A stretch of DNA of 64,000 nt from Vicinamibacterales bacterium (GCA_035606665.1 DATNEY010000026.1:215575-279574), one strand, 5' to 3'; positions 14,553 to 59,969 are shown, counted from the first letter of the stretch. Notes: generated from the sequence alone by a model not told the origin. Made by a program: numbers and translations.

Positions 14553-15433
14553 TCCTCCTCGACCTTCGTCAAGTTCTCGAAACGTACCCGTCCGTGCAGC
14601 GGCTGCAACATGGCGTCCGATCGGGCGTGTTCGGCGAGTGCCGCCCTGGTCATGCCCGGAGCGTTGGCGACCGCCATCAAGGCGGTACCCAATGACTCGA
14701 GCGCCCCGTCCGCTCGCCCGCTCAACGCCAGGGCGCAGGCGAGGTTGTAGTGCGCCAGCCAATTCGCCGGCGCAACCCTGATGGCGGCCCTGCACGATGC
14801 TTCCGCGCTGGCCACCTGGCCTGCCTGCAATTCCGCGCCGCAGAGGTTTGCAAGGACGGCTGCATTGGACGGCTCTCGCACGGCGAGTTCCGTGAACGCT
14901 CGGAGCGCCTCCGTCGTGCGTCCGTCAGCAGCCAGCGCGATTGCGGCCTCGAGTGTCACCAGCGGCGGAGCGCCCCCGTCGGAGTTCTGCACGGTATTCG
15001 CGTTCGCTTGCTCGACTCCCCGGCCGTCGGCGGAACTGCGGGTCACCCACATCGCAAGCACCACAACCGCGATGATCGAAACCACACCCATCAACAGGCC
15101 GCCAGCGATATTCACCCGCGAGTGCTTGACGCTACTGTCGACGTTGCTGGTAATCGTCGTGGCCCGTGACGAGTGATCGTCGTTCGTGACGGTCGTGACC
15201 GAGCGACTGTCCCGGACCGAATGGTCGTCTCGAGTGGAATGGTCGTCGCGGGTCGAACTCGACTGCGCCGAACTGTGGATGTTCGTCTCGCTGTAGTCGG
15301 CGCCCGTGTCGCCCTTCGACTGTGAGATCGTCGCTGGCGTAGCCGGCGGCCGTACCACGCGCAGCGCGCCGCCACAGGCGAGACAGAACTTCCCCGAAGC
15401 CTCCTGTCGCCCGCACTGAGCGCATTCCAACAT
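14549..15433 (-). CDS. Membrane-anchored protein: N-terminal zinc ribbon, STRDDHS-repeat linker, single TM, C-terminal TPR repeats
   Basis: CAQCG...CLACG. TM GGLLMGVVSIIAVVVLAMWV. TPR-like helices (AEASCRAAIRVAPANWLAHYNLACALALSG). The N-terminal ~100 aa are near-identical to the protein at 28021. Confidence 0.8.
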   Translation of the reverse strand: MLECAQCGRQEASGKFCLACGGALRVVRPPATPATISQSKGDTGADYSETNIHSSAQSSSTRDDHSTRDDHSVRDSRSVTTVTNDDHSSRATTITSNVDSSVKHSRVNIAGGLLMGVVSIIAVVVLAMWVTRSSADGRGVEQANANTVQNSDGGAPPLVTLEAAIALAADGRTTEALRAFTELAVREPSNAAVLANLCGAELQAGQVASAEASCRAAIRVAPANWLAHYNLACALALSGRADGALESLGTALMAVANAPGMTRAALAEHARSDAMLQPLHGRVRFENLTKVEEE

Positions 15434-15678
15434 CGACTACTCCTCGGCTCAGCCAGCCGATCTCGACGGGTTCAGCGCAGACCGTGCATTGCACTGAATA
15501 AGTACCCCCAAGATGACTTTAATGGACTCTAATTATCCGAGGAGTATACTCCCGCCGCCCGGCCGGGTTCAACTGGTGACTTGGCACGGCGCCTGGGCGG
15601 CCCGTGGCAGGGCAAGCTGGCAGGTCATAGGAAGGTATTACCCTGAAGTTCTGGAACCGTCTATATAATTGATGGCAA

Positions 15679-17741: not shown

Positions 17742-19073
17742 TCATTTCACCAGATTCCGCCGCGGCGGAACGGGTTCGGCGATCCTCGGCAACGTGAGGC
17801 CATCAAAGATCAAGTTGTGAAGTGAATAGGATCTTCTTGTGCCCGTCGTGACAACGCCGACCACGAATTCGGCACTGAGTTGAAACGACTTCGGAGCGGC
17901 ACCGGAATTCGTTTCGCTCGCATCCTGAACGAAGCTCATGGTAACTGCAATGTTCTGCCCAGCGGGGATGGGCGTTGTGGACCCGTACACGAACTGGTAG
18001 GGACCGCAAGTCGCGCCTTCCCGGATGTCCGTCGCAGTTTGTGAACCAGTGCCTTCCCACCTTTGAAGAACCAGCACGATCTCGGCAGGATTGTACTCGG
18101 CGCGACCCGGCGCACAGCTGTCCGCACTTCGTCCCACTCCGACAACACTCACGCCAGTAACCGCAGAAGGTGATAGGCGCCAGACCGTGCCTCGCTCGTC
18201 GATGAGGCTGGTCCGCAGGGACGCACCCATCTCCGTACCTTGTCGCTCTGGTGCAGCATCAGCATTCATCGCCACAACCATGGGCCTCTGAAGATCGCGG
18301 TTCAAGAGCTCGATCGAAAGCCTGAACCCGCTTCTGCTTCGACCGTCCTGTCCCTGGAGGCGCATCGGGACGGCCGATTTGAGAACCACACGAAGAGCCC
18401 CGACGTCCTTCGAAGCAATGGCATTGCCTTCGCGATAACTCGGAGTCCCACCGCCACCGCTTGCGGAGTCACCCGCGGGTGCCGTTGCCGTCGTCGAACC
18501 GGCGAACAGCCCTCGATTGAGCAGTTGCTGGATGTCGCTGGTCGTCGGGAAGGTGATCCTGCCGGCGGTGACGATCCGCGATGACTCCGTAGCAATGGCT
18601 TTGACTGTAAGAGTGATCTTCGCATCAAGGGAAGTTACTGTCCCCATCAGGAAGACATCAACCCCCGCGAACTCGCCCAGTTTCTTGGCGTTCGCTGGAT
18701 TGACCAGGCCTTGCACCGTCAGCTTGTTTTCCGCCAGGATGCGATTGGTGTTGGCGCGGTCCAGCATCGAGATGCCGCCGGCGAGCACCATCTCGACGGT
18801 CAGGAGCTCCGACAGGTGGCGCCCCAGTTCGGTCGGCTGTCCCTGGATGTCCGTGAAATCGACCGCGGCTACGTTCTTGATGCCTTGGCTCGCCAGCGCC
18901 TTGCCCAGGTTGGCCGCGAGCGTGGACAGTTCCTTGTCCAGCGATTGTGCCTGTACCTCCGTCGATTGTGCCCGTACCTCCGTGTTGATCGCGAGGCTGA
19001 GCGCAAGGACAACCATCAGTTTCACTGCCGCCAGGATCTTCAAAGTGAACCTCCAACCTGCGCGATGACGCAC
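17742..19073 (-). CDS. Lipoprotein/secreted protein with FlgO/CsgG/LpoB-like domain (paralog)
   Basis: VAAVDFTDIQGQPTELGRHLSELL...DRANTNRILAENKL...GVDVFLMGTVT. GTG start. 21-bp tandem duplication (TEVRAQS x2) in the signal region. Confidence 0.75.
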   Translation of the reverse strand: MRHRAGWRFTLKILAAVKLMVVLALSLAINTEVRAQSTEVQAQSLDKELSTLAANLGKALASQGIKNVAAVDFTDIQGQPTELGRHLSELLTVEMVLAGGISMLDRANTNRILAENKLTVQGLVNPANAKKLGEFAGVDVFLMGTVTSLDAKITLTVKAIATESSRIVTAGRITFPTTSDIQQLLNRGLFAGSTTATAPAGDSASGGGGTPSYREGNAIASKDVGALRVVLKSAVPMRLQGQDGRSRSGFRLSIELLNRDLQRPMVVAMNADAAPERQGTEMGASLRTSLIDERGTVWRLSPSAVTGVSVVGVGRSADSCAPGRAEYNPAEIVLVLQRWEGTGSQTATDIREGATCGPYQFVYGSTTPIPAGQNIAVTMSFVQDASETNSGAAPKSFQLSAEFVVGVVTTGTRRSYSLHNLIFDGLTLPRIAEPVPPRRNLVK

Positions 19074-19424: not shown

Positions 19425-20909
19425 GTGCCGATGTTCTGCGGGTCCTGCGGTACCGCCAATCCCGACACGAACAGATTCTGTCGGAGCTGCGGCCGTTCCC
19501 TCGCCGCTGATTTCGCCGCAGCCCCGGCCGACGCGCTCGACGCTCGCGCGACCGTCATGGGCCTGCGCGCGGGCCAGATACTGAGCGATCGCCACGTGCT
19601 GGAGCGACTGCTCGGCCGAGGCGGAATGGGCGAGGTGTGGCTCGCGCGTGACCGGACGTTGGACCTGCCGGTCGCGATCAAAGTCGTGAGCGAACTGCTC
19701 GCGCGCGATGCGCAGGCGATGGCGCGGCTGCGCGTCGAGGCGCGGACAACCATTCCCCTCCACCACCCCCGCATTGTCCGGGTCAATCACTTTGAAAACC
19801 AGGGGCCGGTGACGTTCCTGGTGATGGAGTACATCGAGGGCGAGACGCTCGCCCAACGGCTGGCGCGAGAAAGGCAACTGCCCGAAGTTGACGCCCGTCG
19901 GATCGGACTGGCGGTGACCGAAGCGTTGGCTTACGCGCACGAACACCGTGTGTTGCATCGGGACATCAAGCCGGCGAACGTACTGCTCGGCGTAGATGGA
20001 GCGGTCAAGCTCGCGGACTTCGGGATTGCTCGTGCTGCTACGGATTCGCTGTCGCGACTGACGGGGTTGCAGACGTCGGGGACACTGCTCTATATGGCGC
20101 CGGAGGTCGTCGAAGGCGAACCGCCCCTGCCCGCGGCGGACTGGTATTCACTGGGGGCGACATTGTATGAACTCGTGACTGGTATGCCGCCGTTCCATTC
20201 CGGCGACCTGACCTATCAGATCCTGCACAAGACACCGACGCCGCTCGAGGGCGTTAGCGCCGTTTTTGGGGCACTGGTGGCGACGCTGCTGGCGAAGAAC
20301 CCGGCCGCGCGGCCGGCGGCGACCGAGATCCGCGAGACGCTCAGTGGGACGTTCGGGCGCCGGCAGAATCGAGAAGCCCAGGATTCGCAATCGGGGCGCG
20401 GCCCTGATGTTGTCATCGAGCATCCCATTGACCTCACGCTCGAAGATGCATTCACAGGAACAATCCGTCGCGTCCTGATTCCGCATGAGGGTCGCCAGGA
20501 CCGCACCGTTGATACGGCGGGGCCCACGAGCCTGAAGGTGCCCGAATCCACGCGATCGGGAGGTCTTCCGGCTAAGAGTCTTGGCATGCCGACCACGAGT
20601 AGGCCGGATGAGCGTGGCGATCTTCACGTGACCACGGATGTCGCAGTTCCATCGCTGTCGGACGGCGAATCGCGGCGCGCCCGGCGTATTCGCCGCGCCC
20701 TAATCGCAGCGCTGGCGCTCGCTATCGCAGGCGGCTCCCTCTACTGGTTCTACGGACGTCAACTGTTGGCGAGCGAACTGGAGTACACGCTGCCCCAGCG
20801 CGCCCAACAGCGGATGCCGCAGGTCGCGCCGGCGATCGGGATGCCGACGGATGCCGAACTTGAGGCCTATTTTAGGGAAATGCTGGGGATGGAAGTGGGA
20901 CGGAATTAG
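19425..20909 (+). CDS. Ser/Thr protein kinase with N-terminal zinc ribbon, DnaJ-C-terminal-like domain and C-terminal TM
   Basis: CGSCG...CRSCG. Kinase motifs GRGGMGEVW, AIK, HRDIKPANVLL, DFGIAR. The segment IEHPIDLTLEDAFTGTIRRV...GDLHVTTDVAVP resembles the DnaJ CTD. Confidence 0.9.
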   Translation: MPMFCGSCGTANPDTNRFCRSCGRSLAADFAAAPADALDARATVMGLRAGQILSDRHVLERLLGRGGMGEVWLARDRTLDLPVAIKVVSELLARDAQAMARLRVEARTTIPLHHPRIVRVNHFENQGPVTFLVMEYIEGETLAQRLARERQLPEVDARRIGLAVTEALAYAHEHRVLHRDIKPANVLLGVDGAVKLADFGIARAATDSLSRLTGLQTSGTLLYMAPEVVEGEPPLPAADWYSLGATLYELVTGMPPFHSGDLTYQILHKTPTPLEGVSAVFGALVATLLAKNPAARPAATEIRETLSGTFGRRQNREAQDSQSGRGPDVVIEHPIDLTLEDAFTGTIRRVLIPHEGRQDRTVDTAGPTSLKVPESTRSGGLPAKSLGMPTTSRPDERGDLHVTTDVAVPSLSDGESRRARRIRRALIAALALAIAGGSLYWFYGRQLLASELEYTLPQRAQQRMPQVAPAIGMPTDAELEAYFREMLGMEVGRN

Positions 20910-28002: not shown

Positions 28003-28020
28003 TCGCGAGGGAATCGTCGA

Positions 28021-29061
28021 ATGTTGGAATGCGCCAGGTGCGGGCGGAGTGAGCCTTCTGATTCGGTGCGAGTCTGCCCCGGGTGTGGCGGCGCACTGAG
28101 GGCCGCCCCGCTACCGGGGCCGATTTCAATTTCGCGCGGTGACACGGGTCTCGACAAGAGCGTGACCAGTATCCACAGTTCCGCGCAGACCAGCTCGACC
28201 CGCGACGACCATTCCATTCGAGACGACCATTCGGTTCGAGATAGTCGCTCGGTCAGGAACGTCACGAAAGACGATCACTCGTCGAGGGCGACGACGATCA
28301 GGACGAATATCGACAACCGCGTCAAGCATTCGCGCGTGAATATCGGCGGTGGCGTCCTCGTCTTCTTCGCGATGATCGCTGCCTTGGGATTCGCCATGTG
28401 GGTCATCAATCGGCAGGCTCAGCCGTCGGCAATCACGCTTTCGCCCTCGCCGAACCAGCTCGTGGCTACGCCGGTGGTTTCGACGCCAGTTTCGAGCCCC
28501 ACTGGGGTCCCGCCAACGCCCATCGTGCAGCAGGCTCCAGCCCCGCAGCCTCCGGTCGCCGGAGCGGCTCCGCCGCCTGTGGCCACGCCGCCCAAGCTGG
28601 ATCGCACGAAGTATCTGAACATCGGGTCGATTCGCCCCGGCCTCGTCGCCGTTCTGATGGTCGATGAGCGCCGCGGCGCCGACGCCCTGCTTACCCAGCA
28701 GATGGCGGCAGCGCTTGGGGGGAACGACGATCTCTTCAAACCGGCGTTCGTCGGCGATGGCCTGTTCTCGCGCGTTCATCGCGGCGACATCGATCTGCTC
28801 AGGGAGCTTGGCATCGGTACAGACGTCGCGGAGATTGCACTCGGCACGCGGGCGGCGACGTTTTCGGGGATCGATGTGTCTGGGACGCCGATGACGCGCG
28901 CGAGCGTCACGTTGAGTGTGCGCATCACGCGGCCGTCGGCGGGCTTCGTGTCGAATATGCAAGCCGCCCCGGGGGTCGGTGCCGGATTCGATGAGGCATC
29001 AGCATTGGCGCTTGCCACTGAGAATGCCCTCAAGGTCTTGTTGAAGCAGATGGGAAGGTGA
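28021..29061 (+). CDS. Membrane-anchored protein: N-terminal zinc ribbon, STRDDHS-repeat linker, TM, Pro-rich spacer, C-terminal FlgO/LpoB-like domain
   Basis: CARCG...CPGCG. Linker and TM near-identical to the 14549..15433 protein. C-terminal block LVAVLMVDE...VAEIALGT...ASVTLSVRIT. Confidence 0.75.
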   Translation: MLECARCGRSEPSDSVRVCPGCGGALRAAPLPGPISISRGDTGLDKSVTSIHSSAQTSSTRDDHSIRDDHSVRDSRSVRNVTKDDHSSRATTIRTNIDNRVKHSRVNIGGGVLVFFAMIAALGFAMWVINRQAQPSAITLSPSPNQLVATPVVSTPVSSPTGVPPTPIVQQAPAPQPPVAGAAPPPVATPPKLDRTKYLNIGSIRPGLVAVLMVDERRGADALLTQQMAAALGGNDDLFKPAFVGDGLFSRVHRGDIDLLRELGIGTDVAEIALGTRAATFSGIDVSGTPMTRASVTLSVRITRPSAGFVSNMQAAPGVGAGFDEASALALATENALKVLLKQMGR

Positions 29062-37138: not shown

Positions 37139-38356
37139 ATGGCGCGAAAGTTCATTCTGGTGTTCCTGGGGTGTTGGCTTGTCAGCACCGGCCCACTGCG
37201 GGCTCAGGCGTTGAATCTTGAGATGCGAGGCCTGGCCGAAAGACTGAGCAAGGCCGTTCAAGGACAAGGCATCAAGAACCTCGCCATCGTGGACTTCACA
37301 GATATTCAGGACCAGCCGACCGAACTCGGGCGGGTCCTGGCGGACAGGCTTACAGCTGAGGTTGTGTCACTCGGCCAGGTATCGGTGGTCGATCGAGCCA
37401 ACCTCAAAACCGTTCTCGCGGAGCACAAGCTCACAGCAGCGGGCCTCGTGAACCCGGCAGATGCCAAGAAACTGGGGGAATTCGCTGGGGCGGACGCGGT
37501 TGTTACCGGTACGATCACTGTCCTCGAAGGAGTTGGGCTGACAATCAAGGCCATCTCCACGGGGTCGGCGAAAGTCGCTGCGGCTGGAACCATCACATTT
37601 TCCATGACTCCTGACATCCAGCAGCTTCTCAATCGCCGGATACTCTCCGGTTCGACCGGTGCTGGGGGCTTGGCCGGCGCTTCGACTAACTCCGAGATGG
37701 GTACCATTGTGACCAAAGATTTTGGCCCTCTTCGAGTGACTCTCAAATCGGTATCGCCGCTCCAGACCAGGGACGTTTCCGGCCGCAGCGTGAACAGCGT
37801 AAGTGGAATCCGCTGCACTTTCGAGTTCACCAGTCGGGAAACGCAACGGTCAATTGTTGTCGGACTAAATGCCGTACCGGATGATCGGCCGCCGGTTGAG
37901 GGCAGGGTTCTTCGCACGACGCTGATCGACGATCACGGCAGTACCTGGTATCTTTTCGCACCGGACGTCAGTGGGCTGAGTATCGTGTCTGTTGGGTTGC
38001 GTGACCCTCGGACTAGGTACGATCCGACAGACATCGGGACTGCCCTCCGGCGTCAGGACCTGACGGGTGCAAACACGGCGACTGCCCCTCCTTCGACTTC
38101 CCCCACCGGCGGTAACCCTTTCGACAGAGTCCCCTACACGTTTGTATTTGGCACAACGACTCCACTCACCCCAGGACAGAGCCTGACGGTGACCATGAAC
38201 TTCGCGCAGCCTGACCGCGACTCGCGCAGCCCCCGACCGCAGTTCTTCCAGCTTGTGAGCGAGATGGTCGTGGGCGTGGTTACTTCAGACCGGGAGAAGA
38301 CCTACTCGCTCCACAATGTGGCGTTCGATCACGTGACCATGCCAGGCGGCGGCTAG
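37139..38356 (+). CDS. Lipoprotein with FlgO/CsgG/LpoB-like domain (paralog of 17742..19073). Start moved to the Met preceding the signal peptide.
   Basis: MARKFILVFLGCWLVSTGPLRAQA signal. LAIVDFTDIQDQPTELGRVLADRL...DRANLKTVLAEHKL...GADAVVTGTIT. Confidence 0.75.
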   Translation: MARKFILVFLGCWLVSTGPLRAQALNLEMRGLAERLSKAVQGQGIKNLAIVDFTDIQDQPTELGRVLADRLTAEVVSLGQVSVVDRANLKTVLAEHKLTAAGLVNPADAKKLGEFAGADAVVTGTITVLEGVGLTIKAISTGSAKVAAAGTITFSMTPDIQQLLNRRILSGSTGAGGLAGASTNSEMGTIVTKDFGPLRVTLKSVSPLQTRDVSGRSVNSVSGIRCTFEFTSRETQRSIVVGLNAVPDDRPPVEGRVLRTTLIDDHGSTWYLFAPDVSGLSIVSVGLRDPRTRYDPTDIGTALRRQDLTGANTATAPPSTSPTGGNPFDRVPYTFVFGTTTPLTPGQSLTVTMNFAQPDRDSRSPRPQFFQLVSEMVVGVVTSDREKTYSLHNVAFDHVTMPGGG

Positions 38357-40231: not shown

Positions 40232-40319
40232 GCTGGCATCGTACCAAAAGTGATGCGGGCAACGACGCGAACGAGCGGGAACGACGGGAACGAACGTGAA
40301 CGAAAGCCGGTTCGAGGTT

Positions 40320-41928: not shown

Positions 41929-42642
41929 ATGAAAAGAGTCAGGCGGTCGTGGTCGCACGCGCTGGCATTCCTTGCCGGTGCCGGCGTGACGAGTGCGCTG
42001 ATCTGGAGCATCCAGAACGCTCCGGCGCGTCTGCAGGCGCGGCTCGCGGACGACTGCGGTCCCCTCGCGACCGAGGCCGAGGCACGCGGGGGCGTTCCGC
42101 GCGAGCAGCCGTCCGCAAAAGGACGAGACGATGAGCCGATCCGAACGAGCCGCAGCACTGCTGTGATGCCGGTGATTGGCGCGGACTCGCTCGCTGATCT
42201 CCACTCGCGTGCGCTCATGCTGCCCGTGAAGGGCATGAAGGTCGATGACCTGCAGGAGTCATTCGACGACAAGCGCGGCGAGGGCCGGCGGCACGAGGCG
42301 ATCGACATCCTGGCCCCGCGCAACACGCCCGTGCTCGCCGTCGAGGACGGCACCATCGCGCGGCTCTTCACGAGCAAGGCGGGCGGCCTGACTGTCTATC
42401 AGTTCGATCCCGCGTCCCGCTATGCCTACTACTACGCGCATCTGGAGCGATACGCTCCAGGACTGACCGGCGGCGCCGAGGTCCGGCGTGGCCAGCTGCT
42501 CGGGTTTGTCGGAACGTCCGGCAACGCTCCACCCGACACCCCGCACCTGCACTTCGCGATCTACAGGCTCAACGACAAGAAGCAATGGTGGCAGGGCACG
42601 CCGATCGATCCGTACATGGTGCTTCGAAAGGCAGGCAGGTAA
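41929..42642 (+). CDS. M23 family metallopeptidase
   Basis: HEAIDILAP...YYYAHLERYAPGL...GTSGNAPPDTPHLHFAIY. Confidence 0.85.
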   Translation: MKRVRRSWSHALAFLAGAGVTSALIWSIQNAPARLQARLADDCGPLATEAEARGGVPREQPSAKGRDDEPIRTSRSTAVMPVIGADSLADLHSRALMLPVKGMKVDDLQESFDDKRGEGRRHEAIDILAPRNTPVLAVEDGTIARLFTSKAGGLTVYQFDPASRYAYYYAHLERYAPGLTGGAEVRRGQLLGFVGTSGNAPPDTPHLHFAIYRLNDKKQWWQGTPIDPYMVLRKAGR

Positions 42643-42686
42643 CGACGGGTAACGACGGGTGACGACAGGTAACGACAGGTGACGAG
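42638..42686. repeat. Tandem array of a 10-bp unit GTRACGACRG (~5 copies), with the stop codon TAA embedded in it
   Basis: gtaacgacgg gtaacgacgg gtgacgacag gtaacgacag gtgacgagg read directly. Confidence 0.85.
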
Positions 42687-42844: not shown

Positions 42845-43375
42845 ATGGCCAATCGACCATCCATCGTGCCGGGCCAGATCGAACATGCCATTCTTCGCAT
42901 CCGCGGGCTCAATGTGATTCTCGACACTGAGTTGGCTGGGTTGTACGGAGTTGAGACAAAGGTGCTGAATCAGGCCGTCAGGCGCAATATCAAGCGCTTC
43001 CCGTCTGACTTCATGTTCCAGCTCGCTCCAACCGAGGCGGCGGAGGGTTTAAGGTCACAATTTGTGACCTTAAACGCTGGCCGTGGGTCGCATCGAAAAT
43101 ATGCTCCCTACGCCTTCACCGAGCAAGGCGTCGCCATGCTCTCGTCCGTTCTCCGGAGCCCTCGCGCCATCGCGGTGAACATCGAGATCATGCGTGCCTT
43201 TGTCCAGCTGCGCCGTATGCTCGACTCCAACGCCGAACTCGCCCGCAAGCTCGCAGATCTGGAGCGGAAGTACGACGGCAAGTTCAGCGTCGTCTTCGAG
43301 GCCATCAGGCAGCTGATGGCGCCGCCTGCGGCGCCACGCCGGGAGATTGGTTTTCGCGGGAAACGCCCCATGTGA
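42845..43375 (+). CDS. ORF6N/KilA-N-like domain protein (typically associated with mobile elements or phage)
   Basis: IRGLNVILDTELAGLYGVETKVLNQAVRRNIKRFPSDFMFQL...YAFTEQGVAMLSSVLRSPRAIAVNIEIMRAF matches the ORF6N family pattern. Confidence 0.7.
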   Translation: MANRPSIVPGQIEHAILRIRGLNVILDTELAGLYGVETKVLNQAVRRNIKRFPSDFMFQLAPTEAAEGLRSQFVTLNAGRGSHRKYAPYAFTEQGVAMLSSVLRSPRAIAVNIEIMRAFVQLRRMLDSNAELARKLADLERKYDGKFSVVFEAIRQLMAPPAAPRREIGFRGKRPM

Positions 43376-43390
43376 TTCCACGATTCCGAA

Positions 43391-43460
43391 TCAATGGGTC
43401 AATGACCCCAGGAGTGAGGGGTCATTGGCCCAGAAACGCACAGAATCAGATCCCGCGGCG
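43391..43460. repeat. Intergenic element: GGGTCAATGACCCC inverted against GGGGTCATTGGCCCAGA...CAGATCCCGCG. A second copy lies at 46993..47058.
   Basis: ~45-bp block shared with the 47013 region (GGGGTCATTGGCCCAGAnnCnnAnnAAnCAGATCCCGCG). Confidence 0.7.
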
Positions 43461-43562
43461 GCGCCTCGATCGCTCCACAAGCGCGTCGGCCGGCGGCCGA
43501 CAACGATCGTAGTAACCGGGCGCTTCGAGCGGCGCCCTCCAAACCGCATACACTTGCTCCGC

Positions 43563-43736
43563 ATGTCACTCCCCGCGGGCACCAAACTCGGCACGTACGA
43601 AATTATTTCTCCTCTCGGCGCAGGCGGCATGAGCGCCTGCGGCCGGGCGAGCGCGCGAAGCGCGTCGAGCCCTCCAGGCGTGGGGGTGGGGCCCCACGCA
43701 ACTTCTAGAAGAGGACGGCCGAGCCCATGCCGCTAG
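43563..43736 (+). pseudogene. Remnant of a Ser/Thr kinase 5' end (MSLPAGTKLGTYEIISPLGAGGMS...) immediately upstream of the intact kinase
   Basis: ~75% identity in the first 25 codons to the N-terminus of the 43727 kinase (MPLAAGTRLGSFEIISALGAGGMG), then the similarity decays into a GC-rich out-of-context tail. Confidence 0.55.
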
Positions 43737-46393
43737 CCGCAGGTACACGTCTCGGTTCTTTCGAAATCATCTCGGCTCTCGGCGCTGGCGGCATGGGCGA
43801 GGTTTATCGCGCCCGCGACGCGAAGCTGAATCGCGAGGTCGCCATCAAGGTCCTGCCCGAGCGGCTGGCGCAGGATCCGGCGGCGCTGGCGCGATTCGAG
43901 CGCGAGGCGCATGCGGTTGCGGCGCTTTCGCATCCGAACATCCTGGCGATCTTTGATTTCGGCACTTCGACTCCTGGTGACTCTCAGAGTCGCTCAGTGC
44001 AGGGCACGCCGGCGATCACCTACGCGGTCACCGAGCTGCTCGAGGGTACGACGCTCCGCCAGCGTTTGTCCGACGGAGCGCTGCCCGTCCGCAAGGCCAT
44101 AGACTTCGCGGTCCACATCGTCCGCGGTATCGCCGCTGCCCACGAGCGTGGCATCGTCCATCGGGATCTCAAGCCCGAGAACATCTTCATTACCAATGAT
44201 GGCGCGGTGAAGATCCTCGACTTTGGCCTTGCCAAGAGCGCCGGACCTGAAAGCCAGGCCGGCGCCGCGCCAACTGCGATGCAGACGCAGATGGCGGACA
44301 CGACGCCCGGCATGGTCCTCGGGACTGTCGGCTACATGTCTCCCGAACAAGTCCGCGGCCTCGCACTCGATCACCGCACGGACATCTTCTCGTTCGGCGC
44401 GATCTTCTACGAGATGCTGACCGGGCAGCGCGCGTTCCGCGGCGACTCGCACGTGGAGACGATGAATGCGATCCTGAAAGAAGATCCGCCGGAGTTCAGC
44501 GCGGTCACGGCGAACGTGCCGGGCGCGCTGGAGCGCGTGATCCGGCGGTGTCTCGAGAAGCTGCCGTCCGATCGGTTCCACTCGGCCCACGACCTCGCGA
44601 TCTCGCTCGAGGCGTTTTCGGGCGCGTCGACGTCGAGCGGAGTCCACACGGGGTCAATGGCCCACCTACAGGGGTCAGCGGCCCACCAGGCGCTCCACGA
44701 CGTTCCTGCGCGCAGCAAGACAATGCCGCTCGTGATCGCAGGCGTCGTCATCGCGGCCAGCGCCGCGGCCTTCTTCGCCGGCCGCTTCACGTCGCAGCCG
44801 GAGCCGCCCAGCCAGCCGGACATGAGGCGCCTGACGTACCGCCGCGGACCCGTGATGTCGGCCCGCATGTCGAAAGACGGCACCACCTTCGTGTACTCGG
44901 CGGCGTGGGAGGGCACTCCGCGCCAGGTCTACGCAGCACGCAGCGACACGACGGAATCGCTATCGCTCCCGTATCTGGATGCCGATGTCGTGTCGGTTTC
45001 AGCCAAGGGCGACCTCGCCATCATCCAGAAGCGGCGCAACATCACCGGCTACTCACGACCGGGGACGCTGGCACGCGCGACGATGACCGGCGGCGCGTCG
45101 CGGGATGTCCTTGAAGACGTGCAGGATGCGGACTGGCTGCCCGACGGCTCCAACCTCGCCGTTTCCCGCGTCGTAGACGGCAAATACCAGCTCGAGTTTC
45201 CGATCGGCAAGGTCCTCTACAAGACCGACGGCTGGATCAGCCACGTGCGCGTGTCGCCGGACGGTCAGAAGATCGCGTTTCTGGATCAGCCGATCATCGG
45301 AGACGACCGCGGCACGCTGTCGATCGTCGATGGCGCGGGCAAGAAGTTTTCGATGTCCATCAACTGCGAGAGCACGCAGGGAATGGCGTGGCTGCCGTCG
45401 GGGAAGGAAGTCTGGTTCAGCTGCGCTGCGAATGGCCTGTCGCGCGCGGTGATGGCCGGCGCGATGGACGGCACCGTGCGCACGGTGCTTCGCGTGCCAG
45501 GCAGCCTGTATCTCGGAGACGTCGGCGCCGACGGCTCGGTGCTCGTCTCGCACGACAACGAACGCATGGCGGTGGTCGGGCTGCCGCCCGGCGAAACGCG
45601 CGAGCGTGATATTTCGTGGCTCGACTGGACGCAGGCCAGCATGCTCTCCGAAGACGGCCGCACGCTGCTGATCACCGAAGCGGGCGAGGGCGGCGGCAAA
45701 GGGTACAGCACATTCATTCGGAAGACCGACGGATCGCCGGCGGTCCGCCTGGGGAAGGGACTCGGGCTCGCGATGTCGGCCGACGGCAAATGGGTGATCG
45801 CACAGAACATCGACACGTCGCCCGAGCAGCTCGTGCTGATGCCGACGGGCGCCGGCGAAGCACGCGCGCTCACGCAGGACGACATCACGCACGTCAGTGC
45901 GCGATTCCTTCCCGACGGCAAACGCTTCATCTTCAATGGATACAAGCCCGGGAAGCCGCCTCGCACGTGGATTCAGCCGCTCTCTGGTGGCGCGGCCCTA
46001 CCAGTCACACCCGAGGGCGTCGTGACCGGACAACTGGTTCCGGACGGCACCAAGGTGATGGCGCGCGACGCGGACGGCCAGCGCAAACTCTTTCCCATCG
46101 ATCCGCCCGGTGGCGCGCCGGAGCCGATCAAGTTTCTCGAAGCTGCCGAGGGCGTACTCCGCATCATCGACGCGCACACCGTGTTCGTTCGTCGTCAGGG
46201 GCCGAATGGCACCATTCTGGTTAGCCGGCTGGATCTGGCCACAGGCACACGGACGCCGGTCAGAACGATCATCCCGCCACAGGAGGCGCTCACCACGGGC
46301 TGCACAGTGCTGGTTTCGGCCGACGGCAGCTCGTACACGTGCAACTTCACGGCAACAAACTCGGACTTATTTCTCGTCAAAGGACTCAGGTAA
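43727..46393 (+). CDS. Ser/Thr protein kinase with C-terminal TolB-like/WD40-like beta-propeller (PD40 repeats)
   Basis: GAGGMGEVY, AIKVL, HRDLKPENIFI, DFGLAK, SPEQ. C-terminal repeated hydrophobic-DG-x-x-[IV]-x-F beta-propeller blades. Confidence 0.9.
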   Translation: MPLAAGTRLGSFEIISALGAGGMGEVYRARDAKLNREVAIKVLPERLAQDPAALARFEREAHAVAALSHPNILAIFDFGTSTPGDSQSRSVQGTPAITYAVTELLEGTTLRQRLSDGALPVRKAIDFAVHIVRGIAAAHERGIVHRDLKPENIFITNDGAVKILDFGLAKSAGPESQAGAAPTAMQTQMADTTPGMVLGTVGYMSPEQVRGLALDHRTDIFSFGAIFYEMLTGQRAFRGDSHVETMNAILKEDPPEFSAVTANVPGALERVIRRCLEKLPSDRFHSAHDLAISLEAFSGASTSSGVHTGSMAHLQGSAAHQALHDVPARSKTMPLVIAGVVIAASAAAFFAGRFTSQPEPPSQPDMRRLTYRRGPVMSARMSKDGTTFVYSAAWEGTPRQVYAARSDTTESLSLPYLDADVVSVSAKGDLAIIQKRRNITGYSRPGTLARATMTGGASRDVLEDVQDADWLPDGSNLAVSRVVDGKYQLEFPIGKVLYKTDGWISHVRVSPDGQKIAFLDQPIIGDDRGTLSIVDGAGKKFSMSINCESTQGMAWLPSGKEVWFSCAANGLSRAVMAGAMDGTVRTVLRVPGSLYLGDVGADGSVLVSHDNERMAVVGLPPGETRERDISWLDWTQASMLSEDGRTLLITEAGEGGGKGYSTFIRKTDGSPAVRLGKGLGLAMSADGKWVIAQNIDTSPEQLVLMPTGAGEARALTQDDITHVSARFLPDGKRFIFNGYKPGKPPRTWIQPLSGGAALPVTPEGVVTGQLVPDGTKVMARDADGQRKLFPIDPPGGAPEPIKFLEAAEGVLRIIDAHTVFVRRQGPNGTILVSRLDLATGTRTPVRTIIPPQEALTTGCTVLVSADGSSYTCNFTATNSDLFLVKGLR

Positions 46394-46430
46394 CGACGGG
46401 TGACGACAAGTGATGACGGGTAACGACAGG
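46388..46430. repeat. Second tandem array of the GTRAYGACRG decamer (~4 copies), again containing the gene stop codon
   Basis: gtaacgacgg gtgacgacaa gtgatgacgg gtaacgacag. Direct orientation relative to the 42638 array. Confidence 0.85.
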
Positions 46431-46442
46431 CAGGAGGCACTG

Positions 46443-46922
46443 ATGAAGACAGCACTACTCGCGTCGTTCGTTGTGGCGCTTGGTGTGGCGGCGGCGATGC
46501 CGATCGCTGCGGACCAGGCCAGTAGAGGGACGAGCCCGATCGCGAAGGGATTCGATCGCGCTGGCGTCGAAGCGGCGGCGCTGGACTACGTCGAGGGTCT
46601 GTATAACGCCGACCCGTCGCGCATCGAGCGCAGTGTCCATCCGCAGCTCACCAAGCGCGGCTTCTGGCGTGATTCTCCCACCGCGCCCTGGGGCGCGCAG
46701 GAAACGATGACCTACGACCAGCTCGTCGCGCTCGCGAAGACCTGGAACGCCAAGAAGAATCGCGACCTCTCGATCAAGAAGGTGGAAATCCTGGACGTTG
46801 CTGATCAGACCGCCAGCGCGAAGGTGACCGCGATGTGGGGCATCGACTATCTGCAGCTCGCCAAGTACGAGGGCCGCTGGAAGATCATCAACATCCTCTG
46901 GCAGGCGCACCCGGCGAAGTAG
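46443..46922 (+). CDS. Secreted NTF2-like (lumazine-binding/SnoaL-like) protein
   Basis: Signal peptide MKTALLASFVVALGVAAA. AALDYVEGLYNADPSRIERSVHPQL...AKVTAMWGIDYLQLAKYEGRWKIINILWQ. Confidence 0.55.
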   Translation: MKTALLASFVVALGVAAAMPIAADQASRGTSPIAKGFDRAGVEAAALDYVEGLYNADPSRIERSVHPQLTKRGFWRDSPTAPWGAQETMTYDQLVALAKTWNAKKNRDLSIKKVEILDVADQTASAKVTAMWGIDYLQLAKYEGRWKIINILWQAHPAK

Positions 46923-46992
46923 CGCTTGGGCGCGCGCGACTGGCGGCCGTGGGGCCCCCAGGAGCCCCGCGGGATGTCGCGATCGGCATTTG

Positions 46993-47058
46993 CCGGGCCA
47001 ATGGCCTAGTTGCACAGGGGTCATTGGCCCAGATTCCGAAGAAACAGATCCCCGCGTT
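46993..47058. repeat. Second copy of the GGCCAATGGCC...GGGGTCATTGGCCCAGA...CAGATCCCCGCG element
   Basis: Aligned by eye to 43391..43460. Confidence 0.7.
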
Positions 47059-47060
47059 GG

Positions 47061-47231
47061 CTACTCGCGATACCAGACGACAATCACGCCCTTGGAGTGG
47101 TCTTCCGACATCGATATGTTGATGATTCGGTCAGGCCCTTTCGCGGTTGCGAACGCGGCCGCTTCCGCGCAAAGTTTCTCCCACGATTTCATCGAACTCT
47201 TGAACACCTCGAACTTGACCTCGATCTGCAT
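47061..47231 (-). CDS. Small hypothetical protein (56 aa, MQIEVKFEVFKSSMKSWEKLCAEAAAFATAKGPDRIINISMSEDHSKGVIVVWYRE), absent from the ORF track
   Basis: GGAGG 4 nt upstream of the ATG. Balanced, non-low-complexity sequence. Confidence 0.4.
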   Translation of the reverse strand: MQIEVKFEVFKSSMKSWEKLCAEAAAFATAKGPDRIINISMSEDHSKGVIVVWYRE

Positions 47232-47335
47232 TTAGCCTCCAATCCGGCTGACGAATGATACGGGCCGCAGGACCTTCGCGACGATACGGCCTTTTCTTGC
47301 GGTGAGTCGGCATCCTCGTTGCACTTGCTGGGGTC

Positions 47336-47539
47336 GTGAAAGTCCGCGACGTACTCCGAGTGCTGAGGGACGATGGTTGGGAGCAGCTCAGACAATCACG
47401 AAGTCACCGACATTTTGCGCATTCGACGAAACCGGGCATCGTCACTGTCGCAGGCGCCGAGGGTAGTGAAGTTCCCACCGGTACTCTGAGGGGTATCTAC
47501 CGGCAGGCTGGGCTAGACTGGAAGGCGAGACGGCAATGA
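47336..47539 (+). CDS. hicA: HicA-family mRNA interferase toxin
   Basis: MKVRDVLRVLRDDGWEQLRQSRSHRHFAHSTKPGIVTVAGAEGSEVPTGTLRGIYRQAGL fits the HicA/YcfA pattern. Confidence 0.85.
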   Translation: MKVRDVLRVLRDDGWEQLRQSRSHRHFAHSTKPGIVTVAGAEGSEVPTGTLRGIYRQAGLDWKARRQ

Positions 47540-53652: not shown

Positions 53653-55374
53653 CTACGTTCGTCGTCCCCGATCTCTCCGCACTTCGACCCGCTGTCCCCG
53701 CAACGTCGTCTTCTGGAGCGCGCGAATGACGCGGTCCGCGAGCGCTTCCGGCAGCTCGACCAGCGAATAGCTTGGTGTGATCGTGATCTTGCCGAGCTCG
53801 CGCGCGTCGAGACGCGCCTCACTCGTAATTGCGCCGACCAGATCGCCCGGGCGGATATTGGCAGTGCGGCCGGCGCCGACCCAGAGCAGGGTCATTGGCC
53901 TGCCTGACTGGTCCGCCGGCCCCTCCCGGTGGGCCGCTGGCCCCTCCCGGTGGGCCGCTGACCCACCCCGATGGGTCACTGGCCCGCGATCATCGTGATC
54001 CCCATCATCATCGTCGTCCTCTGACTCACCACCATCCTGAAGCAGCGATACCGCGGCGGCCGCGATGTCGAGGATGTCGACGTTGTGCGCAAGCTCCGCC
54101 ACGAACGCACGCGGGCCGTCGAGTTCGCCCGCCTTGATGCGTTCCTCGATCGCGGCGCGCATGGCGCTGAGACGCTTTGCCTGAAGCGCGGCCTCCGTCG
54201 GGAGCGGCGCGACCTCGATCGGCTGGCGCGTGAGTCCTTCGATCTGCCGGAGCAGGCGCTGTTCGCGCGGATCGACGAGCGTGATCGCAACGCCTTCGCG
54301 GCCGATGCGGCCCGTGCGGCCGATCCGGTGCACGTAGACCTCTGGTGATGTCGGGATGTCGTAGTTGATCACGTGAGAGACATGGTCAATGTCGAGGCCC
54401 CGGGCCGCCACGTCAGTCGCGACGAGCACGTGCGCCTGCTCCTGCCTGAACATCGCCATGACGCGATCGCGCTGCCGCTGCTCCATGCCGCCGTGGAGCG
54501 CCTGCGCGTCGTAACCATGGGACTTGAGCGTGTCCGTGAGCTCTTCGACTTCGAGCCGGGTACGGCAGAAGACAATAGCCGACGCTGGTTCTTCGAATTC
54601 CAGGATGCGCCCGAGCGCGTAGGCTTTGTTCGCGCGTGCGGCGATGAACGCGACCTGGCGAACGCGCGGAAGCTTGCCGGCGGCGCGCTTCTCGCCCTTG
54701 ATCATCACCCGCGCCGGTTTCGTCAGATGGTTTTCCGCAATCGCCGCAATCCGCGGTGCCATCGTCGCCGCGAAGAGCGCCGTCTGTCGCGAATCAGGTG
54801 TGGCTGTGAGGATCGTCTCGAGGTCCTCGGCGAATCCCATGTCGAGCATCTCGTCGGCCTCGTCGAGGACGAGCACAGCGACGGCGTCGAGCACCAGCGC
54901 CTTCCGGCGCATGAGATCGAGCGCGCGGCCGGGCGTGGCGACCACGATGTCGACGCCGCGGCGGAGGGAGCGGATCTGCTGATCCATCGGTGCGCCGCCG
55001 TAGACCGGTACGACGCGCAAGCTGGTCTGCTTCGAGTACTTGTGCACGGCTTCCGCGACCTGCATCGCGAGCTCGCGCGTCGGCACGAGAATCAGGCCAC
55101 GGGGCCCAATGGAGGCCGGGTCTTTAGACCCGGCCTGAGACGCCTTGCGCGGCTCGAGCAGCCGATGGAGCAACGGCAGCGCGAACGCCGCGGTCTTGCC
55201 GGTACCGGTGCCGGCCTGGCCAATCAGATCGCGGCCGGCGAGCAGCACGGGAATGGCCTCTCGCTGAATCGGCGTGGGCTCCTCGTAGCCGAGCGCGGAA
55301 ACGGCTTTGACGAGGGAAGCGGACAGGCCGAGCGAATCGAAGCGAGGGGCGGGGGTCTCTGACGTCACGCACAA
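53653..55374 (-). CDS. DEAD-box ATP-dependent RNA helicase with C-terminal RNA-binding extension
   Basis: PTPIQ (Q motif), GTGKTAAF, DEAD, SAT-like, HRIGRTGR. C-terminal 7-aa tandem repeats REGPAAH. Confidence 0.9.
   Translation of the reverse strand: MCVTSETPAPRFDSLGLSASLVKAVSALGYEEPTPIQREAIPVLLAGRDLIGQAGTGTGKTAAFALPLLHRLLEPRKASQAGSKDPASIGPRGLILVPTRELAMQVAEAVHKYSKQTSLRVVPVYGGAPMDQQIRSLRRGVDIVVATPGRALDLMRRKALVLDAVAVLVLDEADEMLDMGFAEDLETILTATPDSRQTALFAATMAPRIAAIAENHLTKPARVMIKGEKRAAGKLPRVRQVAFIAARANKAYALGRILEFEEPASAIVFCRTRLEVEELTDTLKSHGYDAQALHGGMEQRQRDRVMAMFRQEQAHVLVATDVAARGLDIDHVSHVINYDIPTSPEVYVHRIGRTGRIGREGVAITLVDPREQRLLRQIEGLTRQPIEVAPLPTEAALQAKRLSAMRAAIEERIKAGELDGPRAFVAELAHNVDILDIAAAAVSLLQDGGESEDDDDDGDHDDRGPVTHRGGSAAHREGPAAHREGPADQSGRPMTLLWVGAGRTANIRPGDLVGAITSEARLDARELGKITITPSYSLVELPEALADRVIRALQKTTLRGQRVEVRRDRGRRT

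Positions 55375-58412: not shown

Positions 58413-59969
<1,557 letters not shown>

What the first reader, a model, noticed from the sequence alone, without database searches (positions are those of the whole stretch)
43391..47058. Duplicated ~45-bp element GGGGTCATTGGCCCAGA...CAGATCCCGCG with upstream inverted partner, flanking the kinase/NTF2 segment
Copies at 43391-43460 and 46993-47058 share an ordered set of words (GGCCAATGRCC ... GGGGTCATTGGCCCAGA ... AA.CAGATCCCGCG). A variant (GGGTCAATGGCCCACC/GGGGTCAGCGGCCCACC) appears inside the kinase coding sequence near 44655. These could be REP/MITE-like elements, binding sites, or remnants of the recombination that generated the kinase remnant.
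Basis: seen in the sequence. Interest (0 to 1): 0.5.

Follow-up and report, generated by a model that had tools for sequence, protein, structure and literature searches.

The report
Small family of intergenic hairpin repeats
The two look-alike stretches are real copies of a roughly 70-base hairpin repeat that sits just after genes in a few related soil Acidobacteria (order Vicinamibacterales), most like the ordinary "REP-type" palindromic repeats of other bacteria.

Summary
At 43395-43460 and 46995-47058 (+ strand) there are two copies of one element. Each has a 14-bp stem with an 8-nt loop, an identical 18-mer right arm (AGGGGTCATTGGCCCAGA) and a second box about 15 nt downstream (GAAWCAGATCCC(C)GCG).

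The source is a 712-kb contig of a Vicinamibacterales genome assembled from a metagenome (MAG). The same architecture occurs on two other soil-metagenome loci. L083 carries two full copies plus two diverged ones in 6.9 kb, and its DUF1028 protein is 87% identical to the source's. L132 and L123 are one shared locus. So this is a family, not chance and not a scar of the local kinase rearrangement.

All copies are intergenic. Every copy has the orientation of its neighbouring gene, and five follow a co-oriented gene's stop codon by 20-125 nt. Arm variation keeps the pairing.

No copy turned up in about 140 kb from other Vicinamibacterales, in 185,579 species-representative genomes, in Rfam, or in phage and plasmid collections. 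Only two copies lie in about 80 kb of the source contig.

The family lacks the GTAG/CGTC tag of classical REPs, flanking terminal inverted repeats, integron attC core sites and a U-tract. No transposase gene lies nearby.

The "variant" inside the kinase is a coding 7-residue repeat (GSAAH-type), and its kinship to the element is unproven.

Best reading: a lineage-restricted REP-like stem-loop repeat that probably acts as a 3' RNA hairpin. Interest is low to moderate.

The parts
43395..43432 (+). W1 hairpin. Left arm 43395-43409 (TGGGTCAATGACCCC), 8-nt loop 43410-43417, right arm 43418-43432 (GGGGTCATTGGCCCA). It starts 20 nt after the stop codon (43373-43375) of the ORF6N-domain gene.
   Evidence: I22; MFE hairpin, z -3.4; hairpin alone -27.3 kcal/mol on +, -23.4 on the reverse complement. 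Gene calls; Pfam ORF6N.
43433..43465 (+). W1 3' tail: GAAACGCACAGAATCAGATCCCGCGGCGGCGCC. The conserved CAGA foot spans 43431-43434, bridging the end of the right arm and the start of this tail. The second box is AGAATCAGATCCCGCG.
   Evidence: Alignments. Full-length covariance-model match 43388/9-43465.
46995..47030 (+). W2 hairpin. Left arm 46995-47008 (GGGCCAATGGCCTA), loop 47009-47016, right arm 47017-47030 (GGGGTCATTGGCCC). It starts 73 nt after the stop (46920-46922) of the Lumazine_bd_2 (NTF2-like) gene.
   Evidence: -23.3 against -18.5 kcal/mol. Pfam. Identical sequence in an independent assembly, L145.
47031..47064 (+). W2 3' tail: AGATTCCGAAGAAACAGATCCCCGCGTTGGCTAC. It ends at the stop codon (47061-47063, minus strand) of a convergent 56-aa gene, so W2 fills the gap between two convergent genes.

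Best explanation
W1 and W2 are two members of a small family of intergenic stem-loop repeats about 65-75 nt long, restricted to a narrow lineage. Each has a 14-bp stem, an 8-nt loop, a conserved CAGA foot 3' of the stem and a second 3' box (consensus roughly GAAA-MAGAYYCCCG-G).

Shown: the family exists in at least three related Vicinamibacterales-type soil populations. Copies sit in different intergenic regions beside unrelated genes. Every copy has the orientation of the adjacent gene, and five start 20-125 nt after a co-oriented gene's stop codon. The stem is maintained through G-U wobble and, in the two diverged copies, through compensatory changes.

Inferred: the family arose by copying of a short non-autonomous hairpin element between intergenic sites, in the manner of REP or REPIN elements. 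A trans-acting single-strand DNA enzyme of the Y1 HUH type is possible but has not been seen. In transcripts the copies would fold into a stable 3' stem-loop (-19 to -27 kcal/mol) lacking a U-tract. That stem-loop would pause or terminate transcription or protect the upstream mRNA's 3' end from exonucleases. W2 could serve both convergent genes.

That the two copies bracket the kinase/NTF2 segment is a consequence of local clustering. It is not evidence that the segment is a mobile unit.
For: Family membership. Exact 17-mer scans used only the right arm. Three of 63 metagenome hits (L083, L132, L123) also carry the left arm, the 8-nt loop and a similar 3' box. None of 64 hits in species-representative genomes does.

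Further copies. Covariance model R1 found a second full copy (A2, 72.9 bits) and two diverged copies (C, 20.6 bits; D, 22.1 bits) on L083.

Relatedness. L083's DUF1028 protein is 87% identical to the one 9 kb left of the window. Named homologues of its GT39 protein are Vicinamibacterales, as is the source.

Position. W1, A1 and C start 20-25 nt after a co-oriented stop codon, W2 73 nt and B1 about 125 nt. A2 follows A1 upstream of a co-oriented gene, and D (the weakest copy) lies upstream of a co-oriented gene. All seven have the orientation of the adjacent gene.

Structure. 91% of cells pair. Three left-arm positions vary only as U-G/C-G or A-U/G-U. With C and D included, six pairs change on both sides, and 0 of 500 shuffles reach this. 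In the six copies extracted correctly, the gene-sense strand folds 0.8-9.4 kcal/mol better than its reverse complement.

The hairpins are among the strongest short-loop inverted repeats in the 64-kb window.

Clustering and patchy distribution are typical of REP-like repeats: 2 copies within 3.7 kb here, 4 within 4 kb on L083, and none in about 140 kb of other Vicinamibacterales.
Against: Copy number in the source genome is unknown. Only about 80 kb of the 712-kb contig could be read, and it holds just these two copies.

There is no GTAG or CGTC tag. No Y1 transposase or other transposase appears among the genes of those 80 kb.

No empty site was found, so mobility is not demonstrated.

There is no U-tract after the stem except in B1, and the simple terminator scan does not call these sites.

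The conserved 3' box has no role in a plain stem-loop model.

The covariation evidence leans on copies C and D, which were found with a structure-aware model. The right arm of A1 and B1 is identical by ascertainment. D may overlap the start of a gene at the contig end.
Confidence: 0.5

Rival explanations
1. Ends or recombination sites of a cassette-like mobile unit. The hairpin plus its CAGA foot and 3' box would be recognised as single-stranded DNA by a recombinase or HUH enzyme, in the manner of integron attC sites or IS200/IS605 subterminal hairpins. Small accessory genes would move as [5' repeat - gene - hairpin] modules.
For: Copies are in direct orientation at the 3' ends of small accessory-type genes: ORF6N, Lumazine_bd_2 and an XRE-type HTH.

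Copies cluster in successive intergenic gaps.

In the window, each of the two small genes is also preceded by the same 10-bp tandem repeat GGTRACGACR, so the layout [TR - small gene - hairpin] occurs twice.

CAGA fits the 'CnGA' foot reported for hairpins flanking class 3 Y1 HUH genes of Acidobacteria and Planctomycetes (PMC6006769).
Against: No integron integrase or Y1 transposase is present in about 80 kb. The only tyrosine recombinase lies about 50 kb away, in a separate island.

No RYYYAAC/GTTRRRY core sites can be read in the sequence.

The CAGA foot lies 3' of the hairpin on the gene-sense strand, whereas the paper describes a 5' foot.

The 3.6-kb interval holds a conserved chromosomal kinase whose orthologues sit in other contexts without hairpins.

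The tandem repeat is not found next to the copies on L083 or L132.
Confidence: 0.12
2. Double operator for a dimeric DNA-binding protein. Each arm is itself a near-palindrome (GGNCAWTGNCC), and the two arm centres lie 22-23 bp apart (two helical turns). A regulator could therefore bind two adjacent sites on double-stranded DNA.
For: GG[TC]CA[AT]TG[AG]CC occurs at 6 sites in the window against about 0.2 expected from base composition (the expectation is my own calculation). The spacing is constant at 23 bp in W1, W2, A1 and B1. DNA-binding genes are sometimes adjacent: ORF6N before W1 and an XRE HTH between A2 and C.
Against: W2 lies between two convergent stop codons, where there is no promoter to regulate.

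Positions 4 and 10 within an arm do not co-vary as an intra-arm palindrome would require. They do stay pairable with the other arm.

The conserved asymmetric 3' box and the strict orientation relative to genes are not expected of a symmetric operator.

No regulator gene is common to all loci.
Confidence: 0.12
3. A purely local duplication or recombination scar. The two copies would be direct repeats left by the rearrangement that produced the kinase 5' remnant, with no wider family or function.
For: Only two copies occur in about 80 kb, and they lie 3.6 kb apart. A kinase 5' remnant (43562-43635, 73% identical to 43726-43799) lies between W1 and the kinase (D1). Gene order around the kinase differs from relatives.
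Against: The same architecture occurs on L083 (two full copies plus two diverged ones) and on L132/L123, next to unrelated genes. The remnant shares no sequence with the element. The element's boundaries coincide with gene ends rather than with the remnant.
Confidence: 0.08

Closest known systems
REP / REPIN / BIME repeats (repetitive extragenic palindromes, mobilised by RAYT/TnpAREP Y1 HUH transposases; Di Nocera et al. 2013, PMC3733652; Quentin et al. 2018, PMC6006769)
   Same: Short (about 36 nt) imperfect palindrome forming a stable stem-loop. Extragenic, usually just 3' of genes. Clustered. Patchy, lineage-specific distribution. Conserved short foot next to the stem. Plausibly transcribed as an RNA hairpin.
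   Different: No GTAG or CGTC tag. A conserved second box about 15 nt 3' of the stem. Low observed density in the source (2 in about 80 kb). No RAYT gene seen in the DNA available. Each arm is itself near-palindromic.
Hairpins flanking class 3 TnpAY1 genes (Acidobacteria/Planctomycetes; about 600 copies in Solibacter usitatus; PMC6006769) and the GGGGWSAS-containing inverted repeats of acidobacterial TIRYT genes (PMC3733652)
   Same: The host phylum. Atypical hairpins without GTAG. CAGA fits 'CnGA'. The right arm GGGGTCAT matches GGGGWSAS at 7 of 8 positions.
   Different: The foot lies on the 3' side in the gene-sense orientation, whereas the paper states a 5' foot. No such transposase gene could be examined. 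These resemblances come from consensus strings in the papers, not from a sequence comparison.
'I-shaped' intrinsic terminators and 3'-UTR stabilising hairpins of GC-rich bacteria (from my own knowledge)
   Same: A GC-rich stem-loop shortly after a stop codon, without a U-tract, in the gene-sense orientation. W2 sits between convergent genes, as a bidirectional terminator would.
   Different: Ordinary terminators are not sequence-conserved between unrelated genes and carry no conserved downstream box.
Rickettsia palindromic elements (RPE) and other intragenic REPs (PMC3733652)
   Same: Hairpin-like look-alikes of the stem lie in frame in disordered linkers of two proteins: the kinase at 44651-44685 and DeaD at 53951-53985 (16-17 bits with R1, E 0.002-0.005).
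   Different: These look-alikes lack the 3' box, have a CAGCGG core in one arm, and form 21-bp coding tandem repeats. Homology to the intergenic element is not established.

Membership tests
REP (GTAG/CGTC-tagged, RAYT-associated) | 20-40 nt imperfect palindrome able to form a stem-loop | tested here: met
   14-bp stem with an 8-nt loop; -19 to -27 kcal/mol in six copies; 91% of cells paired.
REP (GTAG/CGTC-tagged, RAYT-associated) | Extragenic location | tested here: met
   W1, W2, A1, A2, B1 and C all lie between called genes or long ORFs. D is uncertain because it sits at a contig end.
REP (GTAG/CGTC-tagged, RAYT-associated) | Many dispersed copies in one genome | tested here: inconclusive
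   2 copies in about 80 kb of the source contig and 4 in the 6.9 kb of L083. The rest of either genome could not be read.
REP (GTAG/CGTC-tagged, RAYT-associated) | Conserved GTAG (or CGTC) tetranucleotide at one foot of the stem | tested here: not met
   No GTAG, CTAC, CGTC or GACG within 8 nt of either foot in any of the 7 copies. The conserved foot is CAGA.
REP (GTAG/CGTC-tagged, RAYT-associated) | Cognate Y1 HUH transposase gene (PF01797) flanked by the repeats (REPtron) | not testable with these tools
   No Y1_Tnp hit among the genes of about 80 kb.
Class 3 TnpAY1-associated hairpins (PMC6006769) | 5' tetranucleotide foot CnGA next to an atypical hairpin | tested here: inconclusive
   CAGA abuts the stem in W1, W2, A1, A2 and B1, but on the 3' side of the gene-sense strand. 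The opposite strand has TCTG at the 5' foot.
MITE | Terminal inverted repeats at the two ends of the element, outside any central hairpin | tested here: not met
   Complementarity between the 50 nt upstream and the 50 nt downstream of the hairpin is no better than in shuffles, for all 7 copies.
MITE | Target-site duplication flanking the element | not tested
   The exact ends are undefined because no empty site was found.
Integron attC site | R''/R' core sites (RYYYAAC ... GTTRRRY) bracketing the palindrome | tested here: not met
   Read directly. The nearest candidate is GTTGGCT after W2, which does not fit RRR. None is present in W1, A2 or B1.
Integron attC site | Integron integrase, or an array with one site after every cassette | tested here: not met
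   There is no intI. The only Phage_integrase gene lies about 50 kb upstream. No site separates the kinase from Lumazine_bd_2.
Canonical intrinsic terminator | GC-rich stem-loop immediately followed by a U-tract | tested here: not met
   The stem is present, but the tails are AGAAAC, AGATTC and AGACTC. Only B1 has TTTTT. The scan calls no terminator at either site.
Any Rfam family | Match to a curated covariance model | tested here: not met
   No relevant hit at E<=10 in 43000-47500. No hit at gathering score in the window, L083 or L132.

The most novel reading that the evidence does not exclude
The hairpin would be the recognition structure of an uncharacterised single-strand DNA mobilisation system in Vicinamibacterales (class 3 Y1 HUH type, with a CAGA foot). 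That system would shuttle or copy short modules after stop codons. It would also have seeded in-frame insertions, which grew into the GSAAH-type heptad repeats in the linkers of the Ser/Thr kinase and of DeaD. This would be a REP-like element reshaping both 3' UTRs and protein linkers.
Probability: 0.1. Interest if true: 0.5.

Novelty: new member of a known kind. Interest (0 to 1): 0.25.

Why it matters
Almost nothing is known about non-coding repeats in Vicinamibacterales, an abundant and mostly uncultured order of soil Acidobacteria. A defined hairpin family with a usable covariance model would help in three ways. It would mark 3' gene ends. It would serve as a marker for very close lineages. 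It might lead to the enzyme that spreads the repeats. On present evidence, though, it is an ordinary kind of feature: a REP-like intergenic palindrome with a low copy number in the DNA that could be read. It explains nothing about the neighbouring kinase.

Tried and rejected
Chance: rejected (and the external copies).

A widespread family: rejected. The 17-mer gave 64 single hits in 185,579 species-representative genomes, none with the left arm, and 4 context-free hits in viral contigs. Many of these are coding matches. The L091 hit, for example, lies in coding sequence. Nothing relevant appeared in plasmids or phages.

Conservation with the kinase: rejected. Five orthologous kinase loci (75-89% identity; about 97 kb) have no copy. 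Three loci from more distant Vicinamibacterales (about 48 kb) have none either.

An extended outer helix or terminal inverted repeats: I thought I saw CGCGGGA...TCCCGCG around W1, W2 and B1. Flank complementarity is no better than in shuffles, and the MFE folds differ between copies.

Sigma-70 promoter or terminator consensus: none at the sites.

Sigma-54, ECF promoter and attC readings: checked by eye and fitted badly.

Filled versus empty site: not obtained. P0002's contig had no DNA, L141 is not syntenic, and L145 proved to be the same DNA as the window. At the DUF1028 locus shared by L083 and the source, synteny breaks right at the gene start.

GGGCCAGCGGCC hits at 59681-59828 and 62365: these are GQRP-type low-complexity coding repeats and unrelated.
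Full report
**Source and gene context**

The window is part of a 711,930-bp metagenome contig (ENA ERZ27256670, k141_1044100). Its proteins are named 'Vicinamibacterales bacterium' by NCBI. Gene calls around the finding run as follows:
- M23 peptidase, 41929-42642 (+)
- ORF6N-domain gene, 42845-43375 (+)
- intergenic gap of 350 nt
- Ser/Thr kinase with a PD40/TolB-like beta-propeller, 43727-46393 (+)
- Lumazine_bd_2 (NTF2-like) gene, 46443-46922 (+)
- a 56-aa gene on the minus strand, 47061-47231
- a 154-aa gene
- M16 peptidase

**What is in the sequence**

W1 is a hairpin at 43395-43432: TGGGTCAATGACCCC / AGGAGTGA / GGGGTCATTGGCCCA. It starts 20 nt after the ORF6N stop codon and is followed by GAAACGCACAGAATCAGATCCCGCG.

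W2 is a hairpin at 46995-47030: GGGCCAATGGCCTA / GTTGCACA / GGGGTCATTGGCCC. It starts 73 nt after the Lumazine_bd_2 stop codon. It is followed by AGATTCCGAAGAAACAGATCCCCGCG and ends at the stop codon of the convergent 56-aa gene.

The 18-mer AGGGGTCATTGGCCCAGA is identical in both copies. Enrichment over shuffles is clear. An unbiased blastn self-comparison of the window gives E=0.007 for the right arm plus tail alone. An independent assembly of run SRR6185503 is identical across W2.

**Is it a family?**

I scanned with the right-arm 17-mer only, so that the left arm and the tail could act as independent validation.
- Representative genomes of 185,579 species: 64 single hits in unrelated taxa, none with a left arm.
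- JGI metagenomes: 63 hits, three of which (two loci) carry the full architecture.

The external full-length copies are:
- A1 (L083): GGGCCATTGACCTA / CCGGCTGA / GGGGTCATTGGCCCAGA, then CTCACGAAAAATAGACTCCCGG
- B1 (L132, with L123 as the same locus in another sample): GGTTCAATGACCCC / TGTGCATA / GGGGTCATTGGCCCAGA, then TTTTTCGGGAACGAGGACCCGAG

A covariance model built from these copies (R1) found more on L083:
- A2, a second full copy 197 bp downstream of A1 (72.9 bits)
- C, a diverged copy at 3678-3713 (20.6 bits)
- D, a diverged copy at 6829-6903 on the minus strand (22.1 bits)

L083 comes from a close relative of the source. Its DUF1028 protein is 87% identical to the one encoded 9 kb left of the window.

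Neither R1 nor the broader model R2 finds any further full-length copy in:
- the window itself
- the 16 kb of the same contig that I could add at the two ends
- about 97 kb around orthologous kinases
- about 48 kb from more distant Vicinamibacterales

Rfam, plasmid and phage collections give nothing.

The family is therefore real, narrow and patchy, and its copies cluster locally.

**Anatomy and constraints**

The 5' boundary is the foot of the left arm, because the upstream flanks are unrelated. The 3' side is conserved for about 30 nt: a CAGA foot, a short A-rich spacer and a box of the form MAGAYYCCCG-G.

Flank complementarity outside the hairpin is no better than chance, so there are no outer terminal inverted repeats.

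Left-arm variation among W1, W2, A1, A2 and B1 falls at three positions. There it alternates U-G/C-G or A-U/G-U, so pairing is kept only on the strand that has the sense of the upstream gene. Accordingly, the six correctly extracted copies fold 0.8-9.4 kcal/mol better on that strand than on the reverse complement. Copies C and D add six pairs changed on both sides, and 0 of 500 shuffles reach this.

Two caveats apply. C and D were found with a structure-aware model. The right arm of A1 and B1 is fixed by ascertainment.

**Position**

Every copy is intergenic and has the orientation of the adjacent gene. Five follow a co-oriented stop codon: W1, A1 and C by 20-25 nt, W2 by 73 nt and B1 by about 125 nt. 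A2 follows A1 and lies upstream of a co-oriented gene. D lies upstream of a co-oriented gene. W2 fills the gap between convergent genes.

The upstream genes are unrelated to each other: ORF6N, Lumazine_bd_2, an FG-GAP/TPR protein, an XRE-type HTH and a coiled-coil protein.

**Interpretation**

The features fit a REP-like intergenic palindromic repeat whose transcribed form is a stable 3' stem-loop. That stem-loop would terminate transcription, in the way of an 'I-shaped' terminator without a U-tract, or it would protect the mRNA 3' end. That function is inferred, not shown.

The element is not a classical REP. It has no GTAG or CGTC tag, and no RAYT gene is visible in the 80 kb available. It is also not a MITE with terminal inverted repeats, not an attC site and not a canonical terminator.

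Two published consensus strings for acidobacterial Y1 HUH-associated repeats resemble it. One is the 'CnGA' foot (PMC6006769). The other is 'GGGGWSAS' (PMC3733652). These are leads only, and the foot is on the other side of the stem in the orientation I infer.

The conserved 3' box is not explained by a plain hairpin model. That keeps a DNA-level recognition role alive as a rival.

**The 'variant' in the kinase**

The stretch 44650-44687 encodes ...GSMAHLQGSAAHQ... in the linker between the kinase domain and the transmembrane helix. The five closest orthologues have the same GS-AH(L)-QGSAAH repeat with variable copy number. More distant orthologues have a shorter, different linker.

A related 21-bp coding array (GSAAHRE GPAAHRE ...) lies in the DeaD linker at 53889-53985 on the minus strand. 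It is absent from the DeaD of the relative L070. The two coding arrays match each other at 82.5% over 40 nt, E 0.002.

Both arrays match the hairpin part of R1 weakly (17.5 and 16.1 bits, E 0.002-0.005) and lack the 3' box. They may descend from in-frame insertions of the hairpin, as intragenic REPs and RPEs do, but this is not established.

**The 'flanking' idea and the kinase remnant**

W1 and W2 do bracket the kinase and the NTF2-like gene as direct repeats 3.6 kb apart. The kinase 5' remnant (43562-43635) resembles the N-terminus of orthologous kinases and is best read as the residue of a deleted tandem paralogue. It shares nothing with the element. Since the element also occurs elsewhere without any kinase, it is not a scar of that event.

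**Verdict**

The REP-like reading is partly supported. This is a new member of a known kind, of low to moderate interest.

Noticed in passing
window 42636-42685 and 46387-46430 (variant at 40255-40303): A 10-bp tandem repeat GGTRACGACR (4-5 units) begins exactly at the TAA stop codon of the M23 peptidase gene and again at that of the kinase gene (...AGG TAA CGACGGG TRACGAC...). The period of 10 puts TAA/TGA in all three reading frames. The two arrays match at 88.6% over 44 nt, E 2.5e-8, which is a stronger repeat than the finding itself. Each lies upstream of the small gene that ends in a hairpin copy, so the layout [TR - small gene - hairpin] occurs twice. The repeat is absent from the other Vicinamibacterales loci fetched.
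   Followed up: partly
window 44651-44690 (+) and 53889-53985 (-): Lineage-specific 21-bp (7-aa) coding repeats of the GSAAH type occur in the disordered linkers of two unrelated proteins, the Ser/Thr kinase and DeaD. They share GGGTCAGCGGCCCACC. Copy number varies among kinase orthologues, and the array is absent from the DeaD of relative L070.
   Followed up: partly
window 43562-43635: A remnant of a kinase 5' end (MSLPAGTKLGTYEIISPLGAGGMS) lies 90 nt upstream of the intact kinase start. It is 73% identical in DNA to 43726-43799 and closer to the N-termini of orthologues than the intact gene's own start is. It is probably the residue of a deleted tandem paralogue.
   Followed up: partly
window 43044-43078: A 35-bp near-perfect palindrome (AGGGTTTAAGGTCACAA T TTGTGACCTTAAACGCT; 17-nt arms, 94% complementary) lies inside the ORF6N-domain coding sequence.
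   Followed up: no
window 43678-43699: A GC-rich hairpin, GCGTGGGG-GTGGGG-CCCCACGC, lies between the kinase remnant and the kinase start codon.
   Followed up: no
L142 2040-9991 (same contig, 0.4-8 kb left of the window start): There is an island holding a tyrosine integrase, an HTH_17 gene, an SNF2 helicase, a HigB toxin, an M78 peptidase and a Beta_protein gene. The integrase gene overlaps the 3' end of the DUF1028 gene. In relative L083 the DUF1028 gene is instead followed by a GT39 gene, which suggests an integrated element or defence island in the source genome.
   Followed up: no
window 59681-59828: A degenerate 21-bp coding tandem repeat (GQRP-type, about 7 units) forms the basic C-terminal tail of a second DEAD-box helicase (58413-59969). 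It shares GGGCCAGCGGCC with the DeaD array but looks like ordinary low complexity.
   Followed up: partly
L083 2935-3025 and L132 about 1270-1220 (minus strand): Other short tandem repeats lie beside the external copies. L083 has 3 x 30 bp (CGGTCGGCGGCACAGCGACGGCCTCCTGCC) between A1 and A2. L132 has a CAACTRAC-type repeat of about 9-10 bp straight after a stop codon, 60 nt upstream of B1.
   Followed up: no
window 15098-15443 / 28010-28353, 18493-18887 / 37265-37656, 3435-3669 / 19800-20034: Inverted paralogous segments of 67-75% DNA identity show that the window holds repeated sets of CsgG/FlgO-like lipoprotein genes, Ser/Thr kinases, AAA ATPases and zinc-ribbon/SPFH genes. A caspase-family peptidase gene (11896-13191) is present too. 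This may be a multi-gene signalling or conflict cluster.
   Followed up: no
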